Positions 1 to 10,390 of a DNA stretch of 64,000 bases are shown piece after piece. A program made the position numbers and the translations under genes. Under the pieces are notes generated by a model. It ran no database searches and was not told where the DNA came from. It was given only the letters and a program-made list of their open reading frames with translations. This stretch comes from Naegleria gruberi (taxonomy: Eukaryota), in the NCBI GenBank assembly GCA_000004985.1, contig GG738920.1. One strand, given 5' to 3'. Each line of letters opens with the position of its first letter. The first letter of the stretch is position 1.

Positions 1-3000
1 TACTGAAGCATTGAAATAGGATCTGTATGCATGTATACTTTCCAGTGAAACAAAACCATACCAGAATACACAGTATCCCCAAGCAATAATAAATAACAAG
101 ATATTGATCCAATAGAATATTCCTGACTCTGCTATCAATACAAAAGACAATAACCAAAACACCCAACCTAACACAAAATCTTGAATGTAGAAGGTATAAA
201 CATGTAAAATAAATACATAGTAAAGAATTGGAGAGATGTTGTAAAGGTTACTAACAAGTGATGAAGACCACCCACCAATACTACCAATGCTCATTACAGT
301 TTTACAAACAAGTACTCTTATATCAAAATAGAAAGGACTGAATGCAACTGAAAATCCATAGAGAATTATTCCCACAGAGCTAAGAACAGAAGCAATACCA
401 AGGAATACACTTGTTGCGTACTTCTTTCCATAAAAACTTCTATAGTTCCACAGTTGGAAGTCCCTATCACCCCACCATCTATACCCTAAGAATGGGAAAA
501 CATCCATTAGGTTGAAGAGTTTTTCAGTTAGGGAAACCAACAACATGAATAGGTTGATTGGAATTAACAGTACCAAGAACTCAATTCTATCCCATGTCAT
601 ATCACTTTCTATTCCTTCAACGTGTGAGAAGAGGCTAATGAGATAATAGAACGGATAAAGAACCAATCCCAAGAGCTTGTATCTAATGAAGAAAAGCTTG
701 TAGATGTGTTCTATGACATGTTGTGTTTCAGCCTTGACAATATGATGGAAACCAGCTTTGTAGTCATCATTGACAGCATCCTCAAAAGTGTACTGCTTGT
801 ATGAGTAACGACTCTTTTTTTCTAGATATCTCTTGATATACTCATTTCTATTCTCAGAATCTGAAGCAGAGAAGGCCTTCTTGAAAACAGATGTGAAATC
901 TTCATTCTTATATGATCCAATAGCACTGTAGTAAGCTTCATTCAAGTTGATATTATTGTAATAGTGGTAAGAGTTATAATTATTGGTATTGTTATACTTG
1001 GCTTGGAACTTTTTGTCAATCAAATTTGCCTTCTTATCAATATCGAGATACAATTGCCAAAGGAAGGAATCCTGTCTTGACAATTCGTGCCAATGTTTAC
1101 AGACACGATCAAAGCTTGCTGCATTTTCTTCAGGGGTGAGGTAAGTCAAAATTTCAAAGAACATATCACTTGGTAATATCTCACCATTATCCTCACTTGT
1201 GTTTTTGGTTTTTGATTTGGTGGTTGAGAATGGTTTTGTTTTCATGAACGCCATTAAATGCTTAATACATGCAACTGTGAAGAAATACAATCTCTTGACA
1301 GTGTAAGGGAATTGATAAACAAATGTAAGATTAATAAATAAAGCTGCAAGGCAAATGATATCCAAAATAGCACTCTTGAATTCAATCCACAATGTTCTTC
1401 TAACACCTTCCTTTAGCATCAAGTATCTGTACACAACGAATGGTATTCTCCAGAACATTACCAATAGAGCAATACCAAATACAAGAGTCAGCAAATCAAC
1501 AAGTGTCTTGGCAATTAAAACTCTAAGTTCTCTTCTTCTTTCTTCATCTCTGTTCTTCCACTGTTCATAGAGGAAAAGATATTTGAACATAAAGTAAACT
1601 CTATATGGAATAACAATACAAGTACATAGAGAAATTATAACAAGTGGAATATCAATGATTAATTGCAATGCCTGATCTCTAATAAATTCTCTATATCCTC
1701 TCTTAGATTTCTTCTTTGAAAGGAAGTGATAAAGCTCAACATTTCTGTAAACAGACAACACAACTACCAATGTGAGTAGCATGTATGGTACATCAAGTAT
1801 AATTTGACTAAGATGGTATCTAATAATTCCTCTTCTTCCCTTAGCTGTTTCTTCGATCCATGCTGATTTCAGTGCATTTGGAATTCTCCATAAAAGAAGT
1901 GGAATAAGAGCTATGTGAATTATGTCGAGAATGAGTTCGTAAAATTCCAAAAGAATGGAATAGTGAGCTTCTGATAGCTTTCCTGAAACATAAGCAGCAG
2001 TAATGATATTTACAACTCGCTTCGATCTCCAGGATACCAATAGCAAGGCTGAACATAAAATGCAAGGAATATCTAGGACCGTTAGGAAAGCGTTAGTTCC
2101 CAATAGGATTAATCGTTTCTTATAGTCTGTTTCGTTTGCTAAGGCTCTTAATATATGTTTGATTCTCCAAACAGTGAGGGATGAAAGAAGGAATAAAATA
2201 ATTATAGGAATGTCTTTAACTAGATTCCAAAAAACGAGAGCTATTTGTTTGTGGACTTCCAATGCTTCTCTGATAGCAAATGTAGATTTGAAAACAGGAT
2301 GTGTCTTGAGAACAGCAACTAAATCCTTGATTCTATAAACTGTGAGAACAATAATTGCAGAAAATACAGTACAAATCAAATCCAAAGGAATTGATAAAGC
2401 TTGAGAAACAATTACCTTGGCGGCCAATTTCTTTGGTTCCTTCTGCCCAACAAGAGACTTCATAGTTGTGACAGTAATTGGAATACGGTAGACTGTGAAT
2501 GTTACCAAATAAGTGCAGATAATTAATGGGATTTGGAGAGGAAGCAAATAAAGTTGCTTTAACACCTTTCCTCTAAAGAAGGTGAATAATTCTCTCTGCT
2601 TACCCAACTCTTTTTCTTCCTTCTTTGCCTTTTTGTATTTTCTAAATAAGAGGAAGATAGTAAAGATGTGCATGATGGAGAGTATCATTAAAACTAGAGA
2701 AATAGTAAATGGGATATCTATCATGGCATCCAAAAATTGTTGAAGAGCTAATTTTCTTCTCTTTTCTGCAGTTTCATATTCTTCTTTATGGAATACCCAA
2801 ATCTTGAGAATAATTACTGGTAAACGCCACATTGACAGCAAACCCAACAAAATAAAAGGTAAATCTTTCAAGACTGCAAAAGCTTCAGAAATAATAATAA
2901 ATTGATAGAGAGTGTCTTCTGTTCTTATTCTCTTAATAGTTGTACCTACTCTGTAAAGAGTTGGAACGACAAGGACTACCATTGCAGTTATTGCTACCAC

Positions 3001-4700
3001 ATCAAGAATACTTTGTACAAATTCTTCCATGGCCTTGTTTCTCATACTTCCCGCCTTTTCTTCATTGGTAATGATGGTAAGATAGTGTAGAATAATTCTT
3101 GGAATTCTCCACAATGACATAATTCCTAAACAAATAAAAGCAATATCAATAATCCAATTTTTGAAAATATCCCTAATAAGTTCTCTTCTCTGAATAAAAA
3201 TTTCATTTCCAACAACCTCTACCTTATCAAGTTCATCGCTATCACTATTTGAAAAGAATTTCTCATCATAAAAGACATCAATAAATATGGAAGAGTAAAG
3301 ATGGGAAGCTCTCCAAAAGGTAACAAATATTGGAACACATAAAACTATATGCATAAAATCCAATACCATTTGAGAGAACATGTACAAGCTAGTTGAATGG
3401 AAGTATAAGAAATTACCCTTCTCAAAGAGCTTCTTTTGTTCGGATCTAGTAATTTCCCATCTGTATCTGGTTACAAATAATGTAATGAATGCCAATAATG
3501 AAGGCAAATCAAGGACCAGACAAATAAATTGTTCGAATGTGATTACTCTCATAGATTTAGTTCTCTTTTCATCTCTATATTGTTGAATTATTGGAATAAA
3601 TCTATAAATGGTGATTGAAAGACAAAGACCTAGAGCAATAAATGGCATGTCAATAAGTACTTCTACACAATGTGAGAAACAGTAAATAGCTCTGTCAAAC
3701 CCTTCAGCTGGTTGTTCTTTGAATCCTTTGATAAATCCCTTAATTCTATAAAATCCAATAATATTAAATAGAATACTCAAAGCATATGCTGGTATTTCCA
3801 TAAGAATATAGCATCCATTTCTGAAAAATAGTTCGTGTGTCCATTTTTGGCTCCAAACATGAGGAATTCTCCACATGGTAACTGCAATCAATAACTGATA
3901 ATTCAAGTTAAAATATTTAAAAGTCAAACAATAATACATACACAAAATGGCAAGCATAAATAATCTAACACTGCTTTAACAGTATAATCAGCCATTAAAT
4001 CAGTAAATGCAGATAATGTTTGAGATTTGTATCCTTGTTTTAAAAAGTATATGAATCTGACAGGATTTACCAACATTACAATAGAAAATAAATGTTTAGG
4101 CAAACGTATTTGGAATTCACCCCAATCAGAGAAGATATCTACATTACTATTACGATAGCTTCTTCCAATCTTGTCATCCCACACAATGAAAGCTCTAATT
4201 GACATGGCCAACATGGACAAGAAGGTGACTGTCAATGAAATCATCATACTCCAAAAACCTGTAGAATTTTCCGAAATGTAAAGAGCATAAGTTTCATAGA
4301 ATGCAAATATTGGATACAAAACAATGGATGGTACTGCAAGTGTAACGATCGGATACATGACTGGAAACATTAAATAATAGATCAACAATACACCATTATT
4401 AAAGTCTGAGTATAAACGCTTTCTACTTCCATAATTATGTGAAATATCCAATGCCAATGTGAGTAATAATAATGCTGGTGAATAAAAGAGGCATGATACA
4501 AAATCAATTACTATTAACCCCAATTTGAGGGCTATTCTCAGTAGAGTTACCACTAACAACTCCATTCCGATATGATGATGATGATGTTGTAAACAGTAAT
4601 AAAAATAATCAGCTAATGATGGGTGCTGATTTAAAAGATACCAAGCATCTGTCTCTGATAATTTTTTTAAGTGGAAGAAAAGTTCATTCAGCTGTGGTAA
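1..4700 (-). CDS. Large multi-exon gene (partial, continues beyond window start) for a repetitive polytopic membrane protein; N-terminal region F-box-like
   Basis: Minus-strand translation is continuous across many ~50-nt GT..AG introns (for example the gtttgactttt...ttgattgcag intron just below 3924). ORF 3924..4565 is one long exon and the frame stays open upstream of its first Met (..SLADYFYYCLQHHHHHIGMELLVV). The protein shows recurring ~55-aa hydrophobic units with D-[IV]-P ... W-R-[IV]-P motifs (WRIPFVVYRYL, WRLPVIILKI, WRIPRIILHYL, WRIPNALKS). Exact exon boundaries and start not resolved. Confidence 0.45.
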
Positions 4701-4871
4701 CCTTTTGGGAACACCAAAAACTAAAACGAACAGAGAACTAACACGTAAAAGAAGAACATTTAAAAAATTAAAAGATACAATACTAAGCGAAACTGCATTG
4801 AAAACATTGATCTATTTTCTTTCCATACACATGACGTCAATTACAAAGGAGAAAAGGAAGATTAATTTACT

Positions 4872-5624
4872 TTACATGAAACTAGTTTCAGAATTATTCA
4901 TAGCTGCTGATTGTTGTCTTTGTGTTAAAATACGCTTAAATCCTTCTATCAAGTTTGGATGTTCACCTTTGAATATTATGTTAACATTATCTAGAGTTTG
5001 TTGGGCTGATTGTTGTTGATTGTTAAGCAGTTTGATTTGTTGTAAGAAATCAGCAAATTGTCTATTTGTCAAAACTTCTTTAGCTTGCTTAAAGAATTCC
5101 TTGCCTTCCAAAGCTTGAGCTTGTTGTGATTGAGTTTGTTGTTGCATTATTGATTGATTATTGATATTTGAAGAATTGAAACTTCTATTCTCTGACATCA
5201 TGCTGTTATTTGTTTGAGTTGGAGGAATGAATTGACTTGTGTTGTTTCCATTCGAAGAAGGATCTTCAAGTTCTTCCAAATTGATTGATTGAATAATTTG
5301 TTTCTTGAATGCTTTCAACTTTGAAAGTTCCCCGTTGAGGGCCTTTACTTGAGCTGACAGTCTATCTCTTTCACTTTGGAGATCTTGGTTCATTTCTTGT
5401 ATAGTTTTCATGGCAGTATTGAGACTTTGATATTCAAATTGTAATTTGCTGTGTTGTTGATTAATTTGATGAATTTCCTCTTGCTTTTTTTGTCCAATTT
5501 TTTTCAATCCTTCAATTTCATCCAACATTTGTAATTCCTTTGTTTTCCATGCTTTGTTTAAAATAGCAATGCCCAATTCAAATTGTTCTTCGGCATTGTT
5601 TGTATTAAGACTACTAGTGTTCAT
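4872..5624 (-). CDS. Q/N-rich coiled-coil protein (250 aa), function unknown
   Basis: Intact ORF; heptad-like charged/Leu pattern (LQSERDRLSAQVKALNGELSKLKAFKK); low-complexity Q/N tracts. Confidence 0.5.
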   Translation of the reverse strand: MNTSSLNTNNAEEQFELGIAILNKAWKTKELQMLDEIEGLKKIGQKKQEEIHQINQQHSKLQFEYQSLNTAMKTIQEMNQDLQSERDRLSAQVKALNGELSKLKAFKKQIIQSINLEELEDPSSNGNNTSQFIPPTQTNNSMMSENRSFNSSNINNQSIMQQQTQSQQAQALEGKEFFKQAKEVLTNRQFADFLQQIKLLNNQQQSAQQTLDNVNIIFKGEHPNLIEGFKRILTQRQQSAAMNNSETSFM

Positions 5625-6074
5625 AATAAATATAAATTAATTTAATAATAATGGTGATGAGATTATTTCTAACGGGATGTTCTCTTTTAGGGAGGCAAAC
5701 AAAAACTGTTTGGAGGTTTCTTAGGTTTTTTTTAAGTGTGTTTAACAGCTTTGATGTACGTCTATTTTGGCGCCAATTTTGAATGCTAAGATTTTTAAAT
5801 GAACGTTAGAGCTCTTGCTCAATACTTACACTTCCTTTACAAATACAACAATATTGTATGCACCTTAATAATATATTTATTGAATAATCATTCCTTTGAT
5901 GAATTTAAACAATTTTAATTCATCCATAGATTTTAAGCAAATTTTGTCTTGTAGTTTTCCGACTTCAACTAACCGTTACAAACCAACATTTTTAAAATTA
6001 ATTAAAAAATTTACAGCACCAACATTCACTTCATCTTCAGCACAGCCAAAAGCTAGGCAATAACAAGATTATTA

Positions 6075-8081
6075 TTGGAAGTTTATAAAAACATTTCCGA
6101 GTCAATCTTCAAGTGGACAATGCCTCTCCACTATCCTCCCATTCGATTAGGACAACAGCCATCCAATCATCATGGCTCATCATCAGGAGGTTTATATCAT
6201 CATCAAGGTAGTTCTACTTCGTTATTGTCGAGAGAGGACTCATCAATTGATATTTGCATAACAGGAGAGAAGAGCCATTTTGTCAGACAACATAGTGGAA
6301 GGAGCAACAGTCAGACACCAAGGTTAGCCAATCATAATATTCGGAATATTGCTTCACCAATTCCTCATCCAATCAATGCTTCCTCTTTTAATACATCGAC
6401 GACAACAACAAATCAACATCATCAGACGGTGATGAATAATAGTGCTAGTATTAATACCAATGGTAACAATATTCCTCTAACTCTTGATTCTAATTTATCG
6501 AGCATATTGAAGGAACACTTGGACGAATCACTTATTAATTTCCTTCAACAAAATCCTCAGCTAATTGACTCGAGTGCAATTAGTTTACTAAATCTTGTAA
6601 ATAAGCATGCTTCTTCTAATAATCAACAAGTTGTACAACCTCAAACAACTCTACCCGAACATACATCAAACTCCCAACATCAAGGTATTCCCAACTTGAC
6701 TGTAAATAATAGTAGTATGAATAATGAGGCAGTTTCATCCTCTGAACCAAAGATTACAATCATTAGAGAATACAAACAACACATGAAACCTACCACTAAA
6801 ACGAAAAAGAAACCAAAATATGTCCCACCCACCATGGATAAAGCTGTAAGGAAAAAAGAGGACAGATTATGTGCTCTTGTCGTTCCCAATAAGCAAAGTG
6901 TAGAGTTTCCAGATGAATTTGAATTCAATGAAAAACACAAATCATTTATTTACAATCCAGAACCTACAAAGACTTCGTTTTTGGAAAGATTAAGCTTTTT
7001 GGATAGTAAGAAATCAAGGGATAGGAGTTTGAATTATTCAATATCCAATCAAAAGGAAGGAAATCCAATAGAGCTATTTTCAAATAATGACATTAGCTAT
7101 TACAACAAGTCTGATTTTTTGTTAGCTTCTGAAAAATTTGTAAAAACGGAAAAGGAACGAAATAATGGAACAATTCCTCAATGGAACAAAATTACTGATA
7201 ATATTCCAATGGGTTTTATTGACGATCTCAATGCAGATTATATCATTCAACCTGTTGATAGATCAAACTCAGTGATACCAGAAGAAGTGGAAGAAGCACC
7301 AGCAGAACGTGAAACCTTCTTCATTACAGGACTGGACGAAACAAATAACACTAACAACTCGATACTTTCCAAAACTCAAAAATCTAACACTCAAAAATCA
7401 GAAATGCCAGAACTACCCTCTCGAATCAGTACCCCTAACTATGTGTTATTCTCTAGAGATGGCACTAATCTTTCCCAAATGTCACAACACTCACAAAGAA
7501 GTGTTTCTCCTAATGTATCTGTAAACCTCTCACGACCTCACTCAACCCTAAGCTACCATTCAGTTCCCTCTAACAATTACCTTTCCAATCACTCGCTAAT
7601 TTACCAAGAAAATGCACCACCAAGACCAAACACTTCCATGAATGTGGATAGAACAGCAGTACTCTCTGCTAAAAAGAAGTGGAATGTCTTTCCTCCTCGT
7701 CAGAAAATCATTGTGAATAATCCTAACAAACCAATCAATAGTTTTGTTGCTGAGCAATCGATGAACTTGTATCACTCCTCGAGCAGTAGAATGGATTTTT
7801 CAAGAAGTGCCACACCTTTATCCACATTAAGAGCTAAAAGCTCAATGTCCTCTCGATCTGGATACTCTATAAATACAAGTCAATCCCATGATAGCTCAGA
7901 ACAGGAAGAAATTGTAATTCGACTTCCTGACCAATGTCTAATCTCTGCCACAAGCAAACCAATCATTTCCAAGCCAACCCCAATCAAACAACACTCAATT
8001 TTCAACAAGAGTCAAGATAGAACTTGCAATTCCATCAATAACAGAGATCTCCTCAATATTTCACCCATAAACAACCAATAG
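6075..8081 (+). CDS. S/T/N-rich low-complexity protein (668 aa), function unknown
   Basis: Long intact ORF with compositional bias typical of disordered regulatory proteins; no catalytic motifs recognised. Confidence 0.45.
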   Translation: MEVYKNISESIFKWTMPLHYPPIRLGQQPSNHHGSSSGGLYHHQGSSTSLLSREDSSIDICITGEKSHFVRQHSGRSNSQTPRLANHNIRNIASPIPHPINASSFNTSTTTTNQHHQTVMNNSASINTNGNNIPLTLDSNLSSILKEHLDESLINFLQQNPQLIDSSAISLLNLVNKHASSNNQQVVQPQTTLPEHTSNSQHQGIPNLTVNNSSMNNEAVSSSEPKITIIREYKQHMKPTTKTKKKPKYVPPTMDKAVRKKEDRLCALVVPNKQSVEFPDEFEFNEKHKSFIYNPEPTKTSFLERLSFLDSKKSRDRSLNYSISNQKEGNPIELFSNNDISYYNKSDFLLASEKFVKTEKERNNGTIPQWNKITDNIPMGFIDDLNADYIIQPVDRSNSVIPEEVEEAPAERETFFITGLDETNNTNNSILSKTQKSNTQKSEMPELPSRISTPNYVLFSRDGTNLSQMSQHSQRSVSPNVSVNLSRPHSTLSYHSVPSNNYLSNHSLIYQENAPPRPNTSMNVDRTAVLSAKKKWNVFPPRQKIIVNNPNKPINSFVAEQSMNLYHSSSSRMDFSRSATPLSTLRAKSSMSSRSGYSINTSQSHDSSEQEEIVIRLPDQCLISATSKPIISKPTPIKQHSIFNKSQDRTCNSINNRDLLNISPINNQ

Positions 8082-8233
8082 TTTAATAACCACACAATAT
8101 AATCTTATCTTATTCCATATAATCTTTGAACAATTATCAAATTTCATAGAGTTTTCGTACCGAACGAACAAAAAACAATTTCTCCTCAGGTACATGATGA
8201 TTCATCTTCGGACCAAAAAGCAAATCATAAAAA

Positions 8234-9538
8234 ATGGCACAACAAGCAGCGACAGTGAATCATCTTGGATCGGATGTGTCTTCATCAGCACTGACCAATA
8301 TAACAATGATCATGAATAATAGTACTACTGCCAACAATCAGAGTGGTATTGCTTCGGTCGTTGAATTTTTATTCTATACACTTTATGATTATTGTTTTAA
8401 TTCAATTTTTGGAATTATATTTAATATTGTCTTGATACTTTTGATCCAAACAAAAACTAGTGGATACCTTACTGTTGAAAATCATTTACTTTACCGATTG
8501 AGAATGATTTTACCGGAGATGGGACAACAAACATCAAAGGTTATTAAAATTTCGACCATGAACGAAGCTGTTATTAAGACTTTGTACTTTTATAACGATC
8601 TAGATTATTTATTCTTTACATTTATGATTATGATTTTCTCATTGAAGAATGTTTACAATTATTTAGTTGTGATTATATTTTTAATTTTACTTTTTAGAAT
8701 TTATACAAACATGTATCAGAAGAGGAGAAATATTCTGTATTATTTAACATTTGTAGTTTCATTCCTTTTATCCTTTATTTGTATGGATTACTTTAATGCA
8801 TCTTGTGGAAATGAAATTGAACATCGTGCTATTTATTATATTAAGAATCATATCAAACATTACTTTTTTGTTTATGATGATCATTCTACGAGAGGAATGG
8901 CTAATGGTTGGTTATTGAATGTGTGGAACTTTTTATTTGAAAATTCCACCAACTTTAGTTTATTTTTATTCCTCTTTATTAATTTAATTGTTTCATATTT
9001 CCTGAATCTTGTAGTTGAATTTGATTATATAAGCAAGTGCCATATTTACTTTACCTCTTTCAAAGAGTATCATCATTTTGTAATTGGAGGAAAGTCATTC
9101 AAGGACAAGAAGATTTTCAATCTCTATTCTTTGGCCTCTAGATATCTCAGTCATTTCCAATTACTAGTTTTACCATTATTGGTCTTCTTCTTGGATCATA
9201 CGGAACACATTAAGGTTTCATTATTTTGTGCTCTCAATATTTTGATGCATTTCATTTACTTTAGGATTTACCTCAAGTCATACTTTATTTACAGAGCACT
9301 TCATTATAACAAGTACAAGCAACCTCAAAAGATGATTAATTTGGTCAAGTTTACAATTCTTTACTCATTGAAGAATTTGATTGTTCCATTTATCTCAACT
9401 GTGTTACTGGCTCTCTATGTCATTACTGACTATAGTTGTGTTGTCTTTTACACCATTTACATCTATTATGCAACAAGTGGTACTATTGGATTGCTGACCT
9501 ACTTCTTTGTCAAAGCCTTCTCTCATAATTTGTTATAA
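8234..9538 (+). CDS. Multi-pass integral membrane protein (434 aa), family unknown
   Basis: Intact ORF with hydrophilic N-terminus followed by at least 7 hydrophobic helices; no signature motif recognised. Confidence 0.45.
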   Translation: MAQQAATVNHLGSDVSSSALTNITMIMNNSTTANNQSGIASVVEFLFYTLYDYCFNSIFGIIFNIVLILLIQTKTSGYLTVENHLLYRLRMILPEMGQQTSKVIKISTMNEAVIKTLYFYNDLDYLFFTFMIMIFSLKNVYNYLVVIIFLILLFRIYTNMYQKRRNILYYLTFVVSFLLSFICMDYFNASCGNEIEHRAIYYIKNHIKHYFFVYDDHSTRGMANGWLLNVWNFLFENSTNFSLFLFLFINLIVSYFLNLVVEFDYISKCHIYFTSFKEYHHFVIGGKSFKDKKIFNLYSLASRYLSHFQLLVLPLLVFFLDHTEHIKVSLFCALNILMHFIYFRIYLKSYFIYRALHYNKYKQPQKMINLVKFTILYSLKNLIVPFISTVLLALYVITDYSCVVFYTIYIYYATSGTIGLLTYFFVKAFSHNLL

Positions 9539-10390
9539 ATCTGTTGAATCCTTAGAAGAATCTTTCTTTTTTTCATCCTTTTCCTTCATTAATGTTTGAA
9601 TTTGTTTCCACTCATTTTGTTCCTTATGTCTCTTGGCTACCTTGTTTGGTTTTTCAGATTTCTTGACCTTTGTAGAGCTGATAAAGTTGTGAGTCTCTGC
9701 AGCCTTATTCTTGAGTAAATCTTCATCCTCATCACTTTCCTCATCCTCATCATTCAATGCAATGGATTTATCATGTTCCTCATCCTCATCATCAGAATCT
9801 TCCAAGAAGGAAAATTTCTTTTCCTTTCTCTTTCTCTTGTGTCCTGACTTTTCCTTTTGCACTTGTCTCTCCTTTAATTGATCCTTGAATGGAACATCAT
9901 CGTCGTCATCAATATCATCAAATAATTTAATTTTCACTTCCTTTTGATTTTCATCATAAATTGCAGGTTTATCAACTAGTTCCTCATCATCCTCATCATC
10001 GAAAAGCTTTACTTCCACATCAACTTGTTTCTTTTCTCCCAACGAATGTTTCTCCTCCTGGGCAACATATTCTGTTATATTGTTATTGTATTTTCCTTGA
10101 AGTTTTACATTGAAAATATCATCGAGAATGTTCATCACTTCCGGCTTGGCAAAAACTTCTTCCTTTTCAATTTGTAATTTGCTCATTCCATTCATCTGTT
10201 GTTGATTGTCATACTTTTTGTTTATAATTACGTTCGGAACCATTGATTTAATCTTATCCAATCCATATACATAATTAACTTGATGAGTTTGAAAGGAATA
10301 GGAAGATGAATTTGTAGTTTTTCCTTCCAAGAGTTGCATAATCTGTGATCCGAGCGTTTTATGTAAAGATGCTTCCTGTAATCGAGACAT
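9533..10390 (-). CDS. Acidic/lysine-rich (D/E/K tracts) protein, probably nuclear or nucleolar (285 aa)
   Basis: Intact ORF; poly-D/E stretches (DDEDDEE, EDEESDEDED) and KRKRKEKK basic patch resembling a nuclear localisation signal. Confidence 0.4.
   Translation of the reverse strand: MSRLQEASLHKTLGSQIMQLLEGKTTNSSSYSFQTHQVNYVYGLDKIKSMVPNVIINKKYDNQQQMNGMSKLQIEKEEVFAKPEVMNILDDIFNVKLQGKYNNNITEYVAQEEKHSLGEKKQVDVEVKLFDDEDDEELVDKPAIYDENQKEVKIKLFDDIDDDDDVPFKDQLKERQVQKEKSGHKRKRKEKKFSFLEDSDDEDEEHDKSIALNDEDEESDEDEDLLKNKAAETHNFISSTKVKKSEKPNKVAKRHKEQNEWKQIQTLMKEKDEKKKDSSKDSTDL

What the first reader, a model, noticed from the sequence alone, without database searches (positions are those of the whole stretch)
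1..4700. Giant intron-rich gene for a repetitive polytopic membrane protein with ~55-aa D-[IV]-P / W-R-[IV]-P units
No long minus-strand ORFs are reported below 3900, yet the minus-strand translation is clearly coding once ~50-nt GT..AG introns are removed. It produces more than 15 tandem units, each a charged linker, then a hydrophobic helix containing [LI][LI]D[IV]P, then [WY]R[IV]P. A 213-aa exon sits at 3924..4565 and an F-box-like stretch (EILTYLTPEENAASFDRVCKHWHELSRQDSFLWQLY) near the 3' coordinate side. This regular internal periodicity in a membrane protein is uncommon and was not matched to a known family by eye. The gene runs off the window start.
Basis: partly seen in the sequence, partly recalled or inferred. 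Interest (0 to 1): 0.5.

Follow-up and report, generated by a model that had tools for sequence, protein, structure and literature searches.

The report
Membrane F-box protein with 18 helix repeats
This is a real Naegleria gruberi gene with one intron, not many, encoding a very large membrane protein built from 18 copies of a ~48-residue helix repeat followed by an F-box, and it belongs to a widespread protist family that nobody appears to have named or studied.

Summary
The window is Naegleria gruberi. The repeat and the F-box are real, but the "intron-rich" reading is wrong. Minus strand 3975..1 is one uninterrupted 1325-codon ORF, which the ORF lister skips only because it runs off the window.

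The gene has two exons, 4565..3942 and 3894..<1. They are separated by one 47-nt GTATGT..CAG intron whose position is conserved in N. lovaniensis. The window holds 1506 aa, and about 29 aa are missing.

The protein has 18 units with a median period of 48 aa, not 55. The family consensus is RRK-x10-D-[ILV]-P-[FY]-(12 apolar)-[WY]-R-x-P.

A profile of the unit finds 688 proteins (354 at E≤1e-10) among 1.84 billion representatives. They come from Heterolobosea, Amoebozoa, Anaeramoeba, Diplonema, Picozoa and a haptophyte, and all are unnamed or misnamed. Across 1451 units D is 96% conserved and R 95%. Only 0.35% of residues between them are charged.

My best reading is a membrane-embedded SCF (Skp1–cullin–F-box) substrate receptor. 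The architecture is shown. The function and the membrane topology are inferred. The public gene model NAEGRDRAFT_59810 is a chimera of three genes.

The parts
3942..4565 (-). Exon 1 (aa 1-208), starting at the ATG at 4565
   Evidence: The ATG at 4565 is the first possible start codon after the upstream stop. The N. lovaniensis orthologue starts at the equivalent position (MGELLVVTLL against MELLVVTLL). Its N-terminal region matches at phmmer E 3.4e-32.
3895..3941 (-). The only intron in the window part of the gene, 47 nt, GTATGT...TATCAG, phase 0
   Evidence: Removing it joins frame 0 to frame 2 without a stop and restores ...LDYLCLPFC|LLIAVTMWRIP. N. lovaniensis has an annotated 53-nt intron at the same codon position...ICIPFA|LLILVTMWRVP.
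1..3894 (-). Exon 2 (aa 209-1506), open at the window start; about 29 codons are missing by comparison with N. lovaniensis
   Evidence: It is a continuous reading frame, part of the 1325-codon open frame 3975..1. The orthologue is colinear at 51% identity and 100% coverage.
4017..4565 (-). N-terminal hydrophobic domain (aa 1-183), about 4-5 hydrophobic helices, specific to Naegleria
   Evidence: Hydropathy peaks fall at aa 10-33, 67-82 and 105-123. jackhmmer finds only N. lovaniensis.
1282..4016 (-). Array of 18 repeat units (aa 184-1079; unit 1 spans the intron)
   Evidence: The conserved acidic or equivalent residues sit at aa 205, 241, 290, 337, 387, 458, 506, 552, 601, 662, 713, 769, 816, 865, 909, 956, 1008 and 1053. 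There are 18 HMM hits, all in one minus-strand frame between 1285 and 3894 and none elsewhere in the window. There is no DNA-level tandem repeat, so the units are old and diverged. AlphaFold2 gives each unit a long helix of 29-31 aa and a short helix of about 13 aa.
1054..1176 (-). F-box (aa 1115-1155), inside a hydrophilic linker (aa ~1080-1249)
   Evidence: Pfam F-box-like PF12937 scores 29.9 bits, above the 24.3 cut-off (E 4.9e-7). PF00646 scores 19.9 bits, just under its 20.5 cut-off. The sequence ILPSDMFFEILTYL...VCKHWHEL...LW shows the canonical LP, hydrophobic core and W.
1..771 (-). C-terminal hydrophobic module (aa ~1250-1506+), about 6 helices, cut by the window edge
   Evidence: jackhmmer seeded with the N. 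lovaniensis C-terminus matched 45 proteins of the ~155-sequence local set. In 33 the match reaches the membrane part of the module. Conserved motifs are D.PH..LLPLKL.G, TLG.P.W and F.P..A..W. The AlphaFold2 model is all-helical but low confidence (pLDDT 62).

Best explanation
This is a two-exon Naegleria gruberi gene for an integral-membrane F-box protein of about 1535 aa. The protein has four parts.
- An N-terminal hydrophobic domain specific to Naegleria.
- Eighteen copies of a ~48-aa unit.
- A cytosolic linker carrying a canonical F-box.
- A conserved C-terminal hydrophobic module.

Each repeat unit is one long helix. It starts at a basic RRK cluster, has a near-invariant Asp (usually D-x-P) about a third to half of the way in, runs 14-15 strictly uncharged residues, and ends at a near-invariant Trp/Tyr-Arg. 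A short amphipathic helix follows.

Shown:
- the gene structure;
- the repeat and its conservation;
- the F-box;
- the order repeats, then F-box, then C-terminal module, kept across distant eukaryotes.

Inferred:
- The long helices are lipid-embedded. Most likely they are successive antiparallel membrane spans, with the short helices lying at the interface.
- The F-box faces the cytosol and recruits Skp1-Cul1. The protein would then act as a membrane-embedded substrate receptor or scaffold of an SCF ubiquitin ligase, with the repeat array as its recognition or platform surface inside the membrane.

My confidence is about 0.9 for the gene model and family assignment, about 0.8 for membrane embedding, and about 0.4 for the SCF-receptor function.
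For: Gene model:
- There is a single open frame 3975..1 and one 47-nt intron.
- The N. lovaniensis orthologue is colinear at 51% identity and 100% coverage, with an intron at the same codon.

Repeat:
- N. gruberi and N. lovaniensis each have 18 units, and P0003 has about 20.
- An independent HMM scores 155.6 bits, against a shuffle maximum of 7.3.
- The profile search finds 688 representatives at E<=1e-3, 354 at E<=1e-10 and 90 at E<=1e-30, with up to 42 matched stretches in one protein.
- Across 1451 units D is 96% conserved, R 95%, W/Y 92% and R/H at D-13 90%.
- The D-to-R distance is 16 residues in 754 of 1076 units.

Membrane embedding:
- Only 52 of 14,865 residues between D and [WYF]R are charged.
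- In 138 canonical 47-aa units no K, R, D or E occurs from D+1 to D+12.
- Kyte-Doolittle peaks fall at nearly every unit.
- AlphaFold2 predicts long helices of 29-31 aa at a mean pLDDT of 74.5.

F-box:
- The Pfam match is above threshold here and in Mastigella, Balamuthia and Soliformovum relatives.
- Wherever the F-box is found together with the C-terminal module, it lies between the repeats and that module (9 of 9).
Against: - No experiment or transcript data were available.
- Many family members keep the repeats and the C-terminal module but have no detectable F-box. These include dictyostelids, several Pelomyxa proteins and Anaeramoeba. The membrane part therefore has a function of its own, and SCF recruitment may be secondary.
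- Every inter-unit loop is net positive. That is unexpected if half of the loops face the non-cytosolic side.
- A simple Hessa-scale sum puts only about 8 of the 18 units below 2.5 kcal/mol.
- The AlphaFold2 global arrangement is unreliable (pTM 0.39), and I could not inspect coordinates.
- The F-box region itself is modelled at low confidence.
Confidence: 0.6

Rival explanations
1. The core activity lies in the membrane part. The stack of helices, each with a buried Asp and flanking Arg, would form an ion, proton or lipid pathway, or a membrane-shaping scaffold. The F-box would be a lineage-specific add-on that only controls the protein's own turnover or localisation.
For: The repeats and the C-terminal module persist without an F-box in many lineages. 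The Asp (96%) and Arg (95%) are conserved far more strongly than anything else in the unit. A polar stripe (positions D-8, D-7, D-4, D0) lies on one face of an otherwise apolar helix.
Confidence: 0.25
2. This rival concerns topology. The units do not cross the membrane. Each would be a short one-sided hairpin or wedge (arms D-11..D-1 and D+1..D+14, turning at D-x-P) inserted from the cytosolic face, so that all loops and the F-box are cytosolic.
For: All 18 loops carry more K and R than D and E. The uncharged stretch is only 14-15 residues and is preceded by a Pro-containing motif. Both flanks are basic, as in known monotopic hairpin proteins (my own knowledge of oleosin, caveolin and lipid-droplet hairpins; not tested here).
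Against: AlphaFold2 draws a continuous helix through D-x-P in 15 of the 17 units modelled. A conserved charged Asp at the tip of a hairpin would sit at the bilayer midplane. Symmetrical basic flanks are also what tandem homologous spans of alternating orientation would need.
Confidence: 0.3
3. The protein is a soluble alpha-solenoid F-box protein. The 18 units would be a new HEAT/ARM-like substrate-binding repeat and would not be membrane helices.
For: The best, non-significant Foldseek hits are karyopherins and other solenoids. F-box proteins normally carry a repeat domain for substrate binding.
Against: Those hits have E>=0.25 and TM-score 0.06. Only 0.35% of residues are charged in the 14-15-residue segments across 1076 units, which is incompatible with solvent-exposed solenoid helices. 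The N- and C-terminal domains are hydrophobic as well.
Confidence: 0.05
4. One reading: many short exons separated by ~50-nt introns. The reader's alternative was several unrelated small genes.
For: The N. lovaniensis orthologue is annotated with five short introns.
Against: In this window 3975..1 is a single open frame that already encodes all units in register. At least one of the N. lovaniensis introns is an annotation patch over a frameshift.
Confidence: 0.02

Closest known systems
F-box proteins, the substrate receptors of SCF (Skp1-Cul1-F-box) ubiquitin ligases (Pfam PF12937 / PF00646)
   Same: The protein has a canonical ~40-residue F-box that scores above the Pfam threshold and is conserved in relatives. 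By inference it binds Skp1.
   Different: The F-box sits C-terminal to the repeat domain, between two hydrophobic modules. There is no LRR, WD40, Kelch or other known substrate-binding domain. The partner domain is an array of apolar helices.
Membrane-associated F-box proteins such as prenylated FBXL2 or mitochondria-associated yeast Mdm30/Mfb1 (from my own knowledge, not tested here)
   Same: They place an SCF receptor at a membrane.
   Different: Those are peripheral or lipid-anchored. This protein would be polytopic, with more than 25 hydrophobic helices. Full-text searches found no description of a polytopic F-box protein.
Large membrane proteins built from tandem helix repeats, for example the four-helix units of Piezo blades, or the mitochondrial carrier repeat with its P-x-[DE]-x-x-[KR] signature (from my own knowledge)
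   Same: They are long arrays of homologous membrane helices with interfacial helices between them. Pro plus acidic plus basic residues are conserved at fixed spacing.
   Different: The unit here is a single long helix plus a short one, about 47 aa, repeated 9 to 42 times. There is no Pfam, PDB sequence or fold match to either family.
Uncharacterised orthologues and relatives
   Same: These are:
- N. lovaniensis C9374_000840;
- Balamuthia KAL6046203;
- Pelomyxa KAH3757436 and KAH3762468;
- Cavenderia F4PXC6 (named 'Polyprotein');
- Polysphondylium KAF2076672;
- Acytostelium XP_012753899;
- Anaeramoeba KAJ6243072;
- Prymnesium KAL1511175.

They share the repeat. The C-terminal module was detected in those of them recovered. 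It was not detected for Prymnesium KAL1511175 or Pelomyxa KAH3762468. Only some of them have the F-box.
   Different: They have other repeat numbers (about 9 to 42). Some have an extra soluble C-terminal domain (DUF4476 in Prymnesium). The N-terminal domain is not shared. None has a meaningful name.

Membership tests
F-box protein (Pfam PF12937 F-box-like / PF00646 F-box) | Sequence match to the F-box profile above the curated threshold | tested here: met
   PF12937 scores 29.9 bits against a cut-off of 24.3, E 4.9e-7, at aa 1115-1155. PF00646 scores 19.9 against 20.5, just below.
F-box protein (Pfam PF12937 F-box-like / PF00646 F-box) | Conserved L-P start, hydrophobic core and Trp of the three-helix F-box | tested here: met
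   ILPSDMFFEILTYL..FDRVCKHWHELSRQDSFLW, read directly from the translation. It is conserved in the orthologue and in relatives.
F-box protein (Pfam PF12937 F-box-like / PF00646 F-box) | Binding to Skp1 and assembly into an SCF complex | not testable with these tools
   This needs a pull-down or co-immunoprecipitation, or a complex prediction with Naegleria Skp1.
Known soluble helical repeats (HEAT, ARM, TPR, Sel1 and similar) | Profile match or a fold match to a solved solenoid | tested here: not met
Known membrane repeat families or transporters (Piezo, mitochondrial carrier, MFS, ABC and others) | Profile or structural match | tested here: not met
   Pfam matches only the F-box, here and in the nine relatives scanned apart from one DUF4476 hit. 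PDB sequence searches with the protein and with the unit profile were empty.
The D...WR repeat family defined here (no public name found) | At least 4 tandem units matching the profile, with D and [WY]R about 16 residues apart and an uncharged stretch between them | tested here: met
   There are 18 units at i-Evalues of 1e-9 to 1e-14, and the spacing and composition fit the family.
The D...WR repeat family defined here (no public name found) | C-terminal hydrophobic module following the repeats | tested here: met
   The module is found in the N. gruberi sequence (as P0001), in N. lovaniensis and in 43 other proteins of the local set. The order repeats, then F-box, then module holds in 9 of 9 cases where all three were detected.
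Integral (polytopic) membrane protein | Hydrophobic helices long enough to span a bilayer, and an experimentally or algorithmically supported topology | tested here: inconclusive
   For: 0.35% charged residues in the core segments, hydropathy peaks and 29-31-aa helices. Against or unclear: only about 8 of 18 units pass a simple Hessa sum, and all loops are net positive. No dedicated topology predictor was available.

The most novel reading that the evidence does not exclude
This would be the founding example of an undescribed, ancient eukaryotic family of giant membrane proteins. It is present in Discoba, Amoebozoa, Metamonada, Haptista and Picozoa. I saw no animal, fungal or plant protein among the roughly 30 members whose source I looked up. 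The proteins are built from a ~47-residue single-helix repeat with a near-invariant intramembrane Asp and interfacial Arg. In many lineages the array is fused to an F-box, which would make these the first polytopic, membrane-integral SCF substrate receptors. The Asp ladder may form a conduit or a recognition groove inside the bilayer.
Probability: 0.4. Interest if true: 0.7.

Novelty: new variant of a known kind. Interest (0 to 1): 0.55.

Why it matters
F-box proteins are known as soluble or peripherally tethered adaptors. One embedded in the membrane through dozens of helices would point to a way of selecting substrates within the bilayer that has not been studied.

Separately, the repeat is a clean sequence signature (D, 16 residues, then WR, with almost no charge between). 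It is conserved in hundreds of proteins across distant protist lineages and has no Pfam model, no solved structure and only spurious database names. That makes it a ready target for a new family definition and for structure determination.

On the practical side, the public N. gruberi gene model is a three-gene chimera and should be corrected. Part of the N. lovaniensis model is an annotation patch over a frameshift.

Tried and rejected
- Word-indexed homology search with the short unit alignment. It found nothing because of the word filter. With the long alignment it returned only 7 proteins and no new names.
- AlphaFold database fold search. The library was not available.
- PDB by sequence, with both the protein and the unit profile. 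The only hit was a chance match to a designed helix bundle at E 0.058.
- AlphaFold2 of the F-box plus C-terminal module. Confidence was too low (pLDDT 62), and Foldseek gave nothing.
- Extending the sequence beyond the window start to find the stop codon. P0001 and a neighbouring ORF are not on record.
- N-terminal domain homology outside Naegleria. None was found.
- Testing whether the two unit flavours (R or H at D-13) alternate strictly, as a proxy for membrane sidedness. H units avoid each other, but the pattern is not strictly alternating, and in N. gruberi it is irregular. The result is inconclusive.
- DNA-level tandem repeats. None were found.
- Literature searches for the locus tag, the transcriptome accession of P0003, and transmembrane or integral-membrane F-box proteins. 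Nothing relevant came up.
- A mitochondrial-carrier-like or Piezo-like identity. I rejected this because there is no profile or fold match.
Full report
**What is in the sequence**

The window is Naegleria gruberi. The translated region is 100% identical to parts of GenBank NAEGRDRAFT_59810.

Translating the minus strand of 1..4700 in three frames gives two open stretches. Frame 0 is open from 4700 to 3927. Frame 2 is open from 3975 to base 1, which is 1325 codons without a stop. The ORF list contains no long minus-strand ORF below 3900 only because that tool does not list ORFs that run off the source.

The two frames are joined by removing 3941..3895. This is 47 nt, GTATGTATTATTGTTTGACTTTTAAATATTTTAACTTGAATTATCAG, phase 0. 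Splicing yields ...LDYLCLPFC|LLIAVTMWRIP... and a 1506-aa protein with no stop. So the gene has two exons in the window, 4565..3942 and 3894..<1, and it is not intron-rich.

**Support from the orthologue**

N. lovaniensis C9374_000840 (P0002, 1523 aa) aligns over 100% of the query at 51% identity. It starts at the equivalent Met. Its first annotated intron lies at the same codon position, ICIPFA|LLILVTMWRVP.

By that alignment about 29 residues of the N. gruberi protein lie beyond the window start. I could not fetch the flanking DNA.

**The public model is a chimera**

The public N. gruberi model (P0001, 2590 aa) is assembled from three genes.
- Its first 249 residues are the neighbouring 250-aa ORF at 5624..4872.
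- It then enters this gene at aa 426. That skips exon 1 and five repeat units, all of which are conserved in N. lovaniensis.
- It drops aa 1414-1503 and continues off-window into a BTB-domain protein.

**The repeat**

Anchoring on the acidic residue gives 18 units. The spacings are 36, 49, 47, 50, 71, 48, 46, 49, 61, 51, 56, 47, 49, 44, 47, 52 and 45 aa. An iterated HMM finds 18 units in N. gruberi, 18 in N. lovaniensis and about 20 in P0003, a distant relative from a EukProt transcriptome.

As an independent test I built an HMM from the P0003 units alone. It scores the N. gruberi protein 155.6 bits, with 11 domains of at least 10 bits. The best of 200 full shuffles and 200 block shuffles scores 7.3 bits, with no such domain.

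In a six-frame scan of the whole window, all 18 hits fall in one minus-strand frame between 1285 and 3894. Unit 1 spans the intron. There is no DNA-level tandem repeat and the units are 7-28% identical to each other. The array is therefore ancient.

**A large, unnamed family**

I searched a 49-position profile of 52 units against 1.84 billion representative proteins. It returned 688 proteins at E<=1e-3, 354 at E<=1e-10 and 90 at E<=1e-30, with up to 42 matched stretches in one protein.

The members whose source I could look up come from these groups:
- Amoebozoa: Mastigella, Mastigamoeba, Pelomyxa, Balamuthia, Soliformovum, Clastostelium, Pyxidicula, and the dictyostelids Cavenderia, Polysphondylium and Acytostelium.
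- Metamonada: Anaeramoeba.
- Euglenozoa: Diplonema.
- Picozoa.
- Haptophytes: Prymnesium.

All of these are "hypothetical" or carry plainly spurious names such as "homeobox protein", "Polyprotein" and "TatA".

Pfam matches nothing in this protein except the F-box. It has no model for the repeat in nine relatives either.

**Anatomy of the unit**

Across 1451 units from about 150 proteins:

| Position | Residue | Conservation |
|---|---|---|
| D0 | Asp | 96% |
| D+16 | Arg | 95% |
| D+15 | Trp/Tyr | 92% |
| D-13 | Arg/His | 90% |
| D+2 | Pro | 56% |
| D+18 | Pro | 47% |
| D-6 | Phe | 51% |

The modal Asp-to-Asp spacing is 47 aa. The Asp-to-Arg distance is 16 in 754 of 1076 units.

In 138 canonical 47-aa units, positions D+1 to D+12 contain no K, R, D or E at all. 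The next ten residues are amphipathic. A polar loop follows, and then an R-R-K cluster opens the next helix. The N-terminal half of that helix has a polar stripe at D-8, D-7, D-4 and D0. Over all units only 52 of 14,865 residues between D and [WYF]R are charged, which is 0.35%.

I ran AlphaFold2 on aa 209-1250 with a 30-sequence alignment. Mean pLDDT was 74.5 and pTM 0.39. Each unit comes out as one long helix of 29-31 residues, running from about D-15 to D+13 and continuous through D-x-P in 15 of the 17 units modelled, followed by a short helix of about 13 residues.

**The other domains**

- The F-box (aa 1115-1155, window 1054..1176) passes the Pfam threshold.
- The C-terminal hydrophobic region matched 45 proteins of the ~155-sequence local set. 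In 33 the match reaches the membrane part of the module. Its conserved motifs are D.PH..LLPLKL.G, TLG.P.W and F.P..A..W.
- Wherever an F-box was detected together with that module, the order is repeats, then F-box, then module (9 of 9).
- Many members have no detectable F-box, including the dictyostelids, several Pelomyxa proteins and Anaeramoeba.
- The N-terminal 195 residues are specific to Naegleria.

**How it most likely works**

Shown: the architecture and its conservation.

Inferred from composition: the long helices sit in lipid. A soluble solenoid could not carry 14-15-residue stretches that are 99.65% uncharged in more than a thousand copies.

Two topologies remain open.
- Alternating spans. 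The AlphaFold helix lengths and continuity favour successive antiparallel spans with the short helices at the interfaces. The equally basic flanks are what a homologous unit needs if it must insert in both orientations.
- One-sided hairpins. All 18 loops are net positive, and only about 8 units pass a simple Hessa-scale sum. This keeps alive a model in which each unit is a hairpin turning at D-x-P.

I could not inspect coordinates. The attractive idea that the conserved Asp and Arg residues zip neighbouring helices together, or line a polar path, is therefore untested.

From established knowledge of F-box proteins, the F-box should bind Skp1 and bring in Cul1-Rbx1. That requires the linker to be cytosolic. 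My best reading is a membrane-embedded SCF substrate receptor or scaffold. The main rival is that the membrane array has its own activity and the F-box is a lineage-specific regulatory addition. The F-box-less relatives support that rival.

**Comparison with what is known**

The protein meets the sequence definition of an F-box protein. It lacks every known substrate-binding domain, and its F-box sits C-terminal to the repeats.

It matches no known repeat, channel or transporter family:
- by profile;
- by PDB sequence;
- by Foldseek, where the best hit has E 0.25 and TM-score 0.06;

Full-text searches found no description of this locus or of polytopic F-box proteins. That library is incomplete, so an existing description cannot be excluded.

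**Verdict**

The object is a new variant of a known kind: an F-box protein whose partner domain is an undescribed membrane helix repeat. It belongs to a widespread but unannotated protist family.

Interest is moderate to fairly high. The function is still inferred, but the signature is unusually clean and the family is large and untouched.

Noticed in passing
window 4872..5624 (-) and the whole of 1..5624: The GenBank/JGI model NAEGRDRAFT_59810 (2590 aa) fuses three genes. Its first 249 aa are the separate 250-aa Q/N-rich coiled-coil ORF at 5624..4872. It then jumps into this gene at aa 426, drops aa 1414-1503, and continues off-window into a BTB-domain protein.
   Followed up: yes
L001 8241..8293 (N. 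lovaniensis PYSW02000011.1): The second annotated intron of the N. lovaniensis orthologue is probably an annotation patch. Reading straight through in the same frame gives ...YYRSGELRNVFKTHSLFPSTFEIREAIQAHRLIALIFWDLIKDI, which aligns well with N. gruberi units 11-12. A frameshift follows near ...IKDI. The cause is either an assembly indel or a real lesion.
   Followed up: partly
relatives P0005/P0154, P0036, P0006: Database names on family members are spurious. They include 'homeobox protein' and 'rab-gap/tbc-related' (Anaeramoeba), 'Polyprotein' (Cavenderia F4PXC6) and 'Sec-independent translocase TatA' (a JGI metagenome protein).
   Followed up: no
repeat array, window 1282..4016 (-), and relatives: The units come in two flavours: Arg at D-13 (RRK...QF) and His at D-13 (W-H..V-F, often with D-L-P-F-I-P-F). 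His-type units are almost never adjacent (HH 15, HR 131, RH 94, RR 226). Some relatives show a clear two-unit super-repeat, but N. gruberi is irregular.
   Followed up: partly
relatives P0003, P0007, P0071 (C-termini): Some family members carry an additional soluble C-terminal domain that Naegleria lacks. Pfam DUF4476 matches it in Prymnesium, and similar-looking tails occur in Balamuthia and P0003.
   Followed up: no
L001 (N. lovaniensis locus) against window 4600..10000: The orthologous genes are not in conserved neighbourhoods. N. lovaniensis has a MAPEG gene upstream and a protein kinase downstream. N. gruberi has the coiled-coil ORF upstream. The public model suggests a BTB gene downstream.
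   Followed up: no
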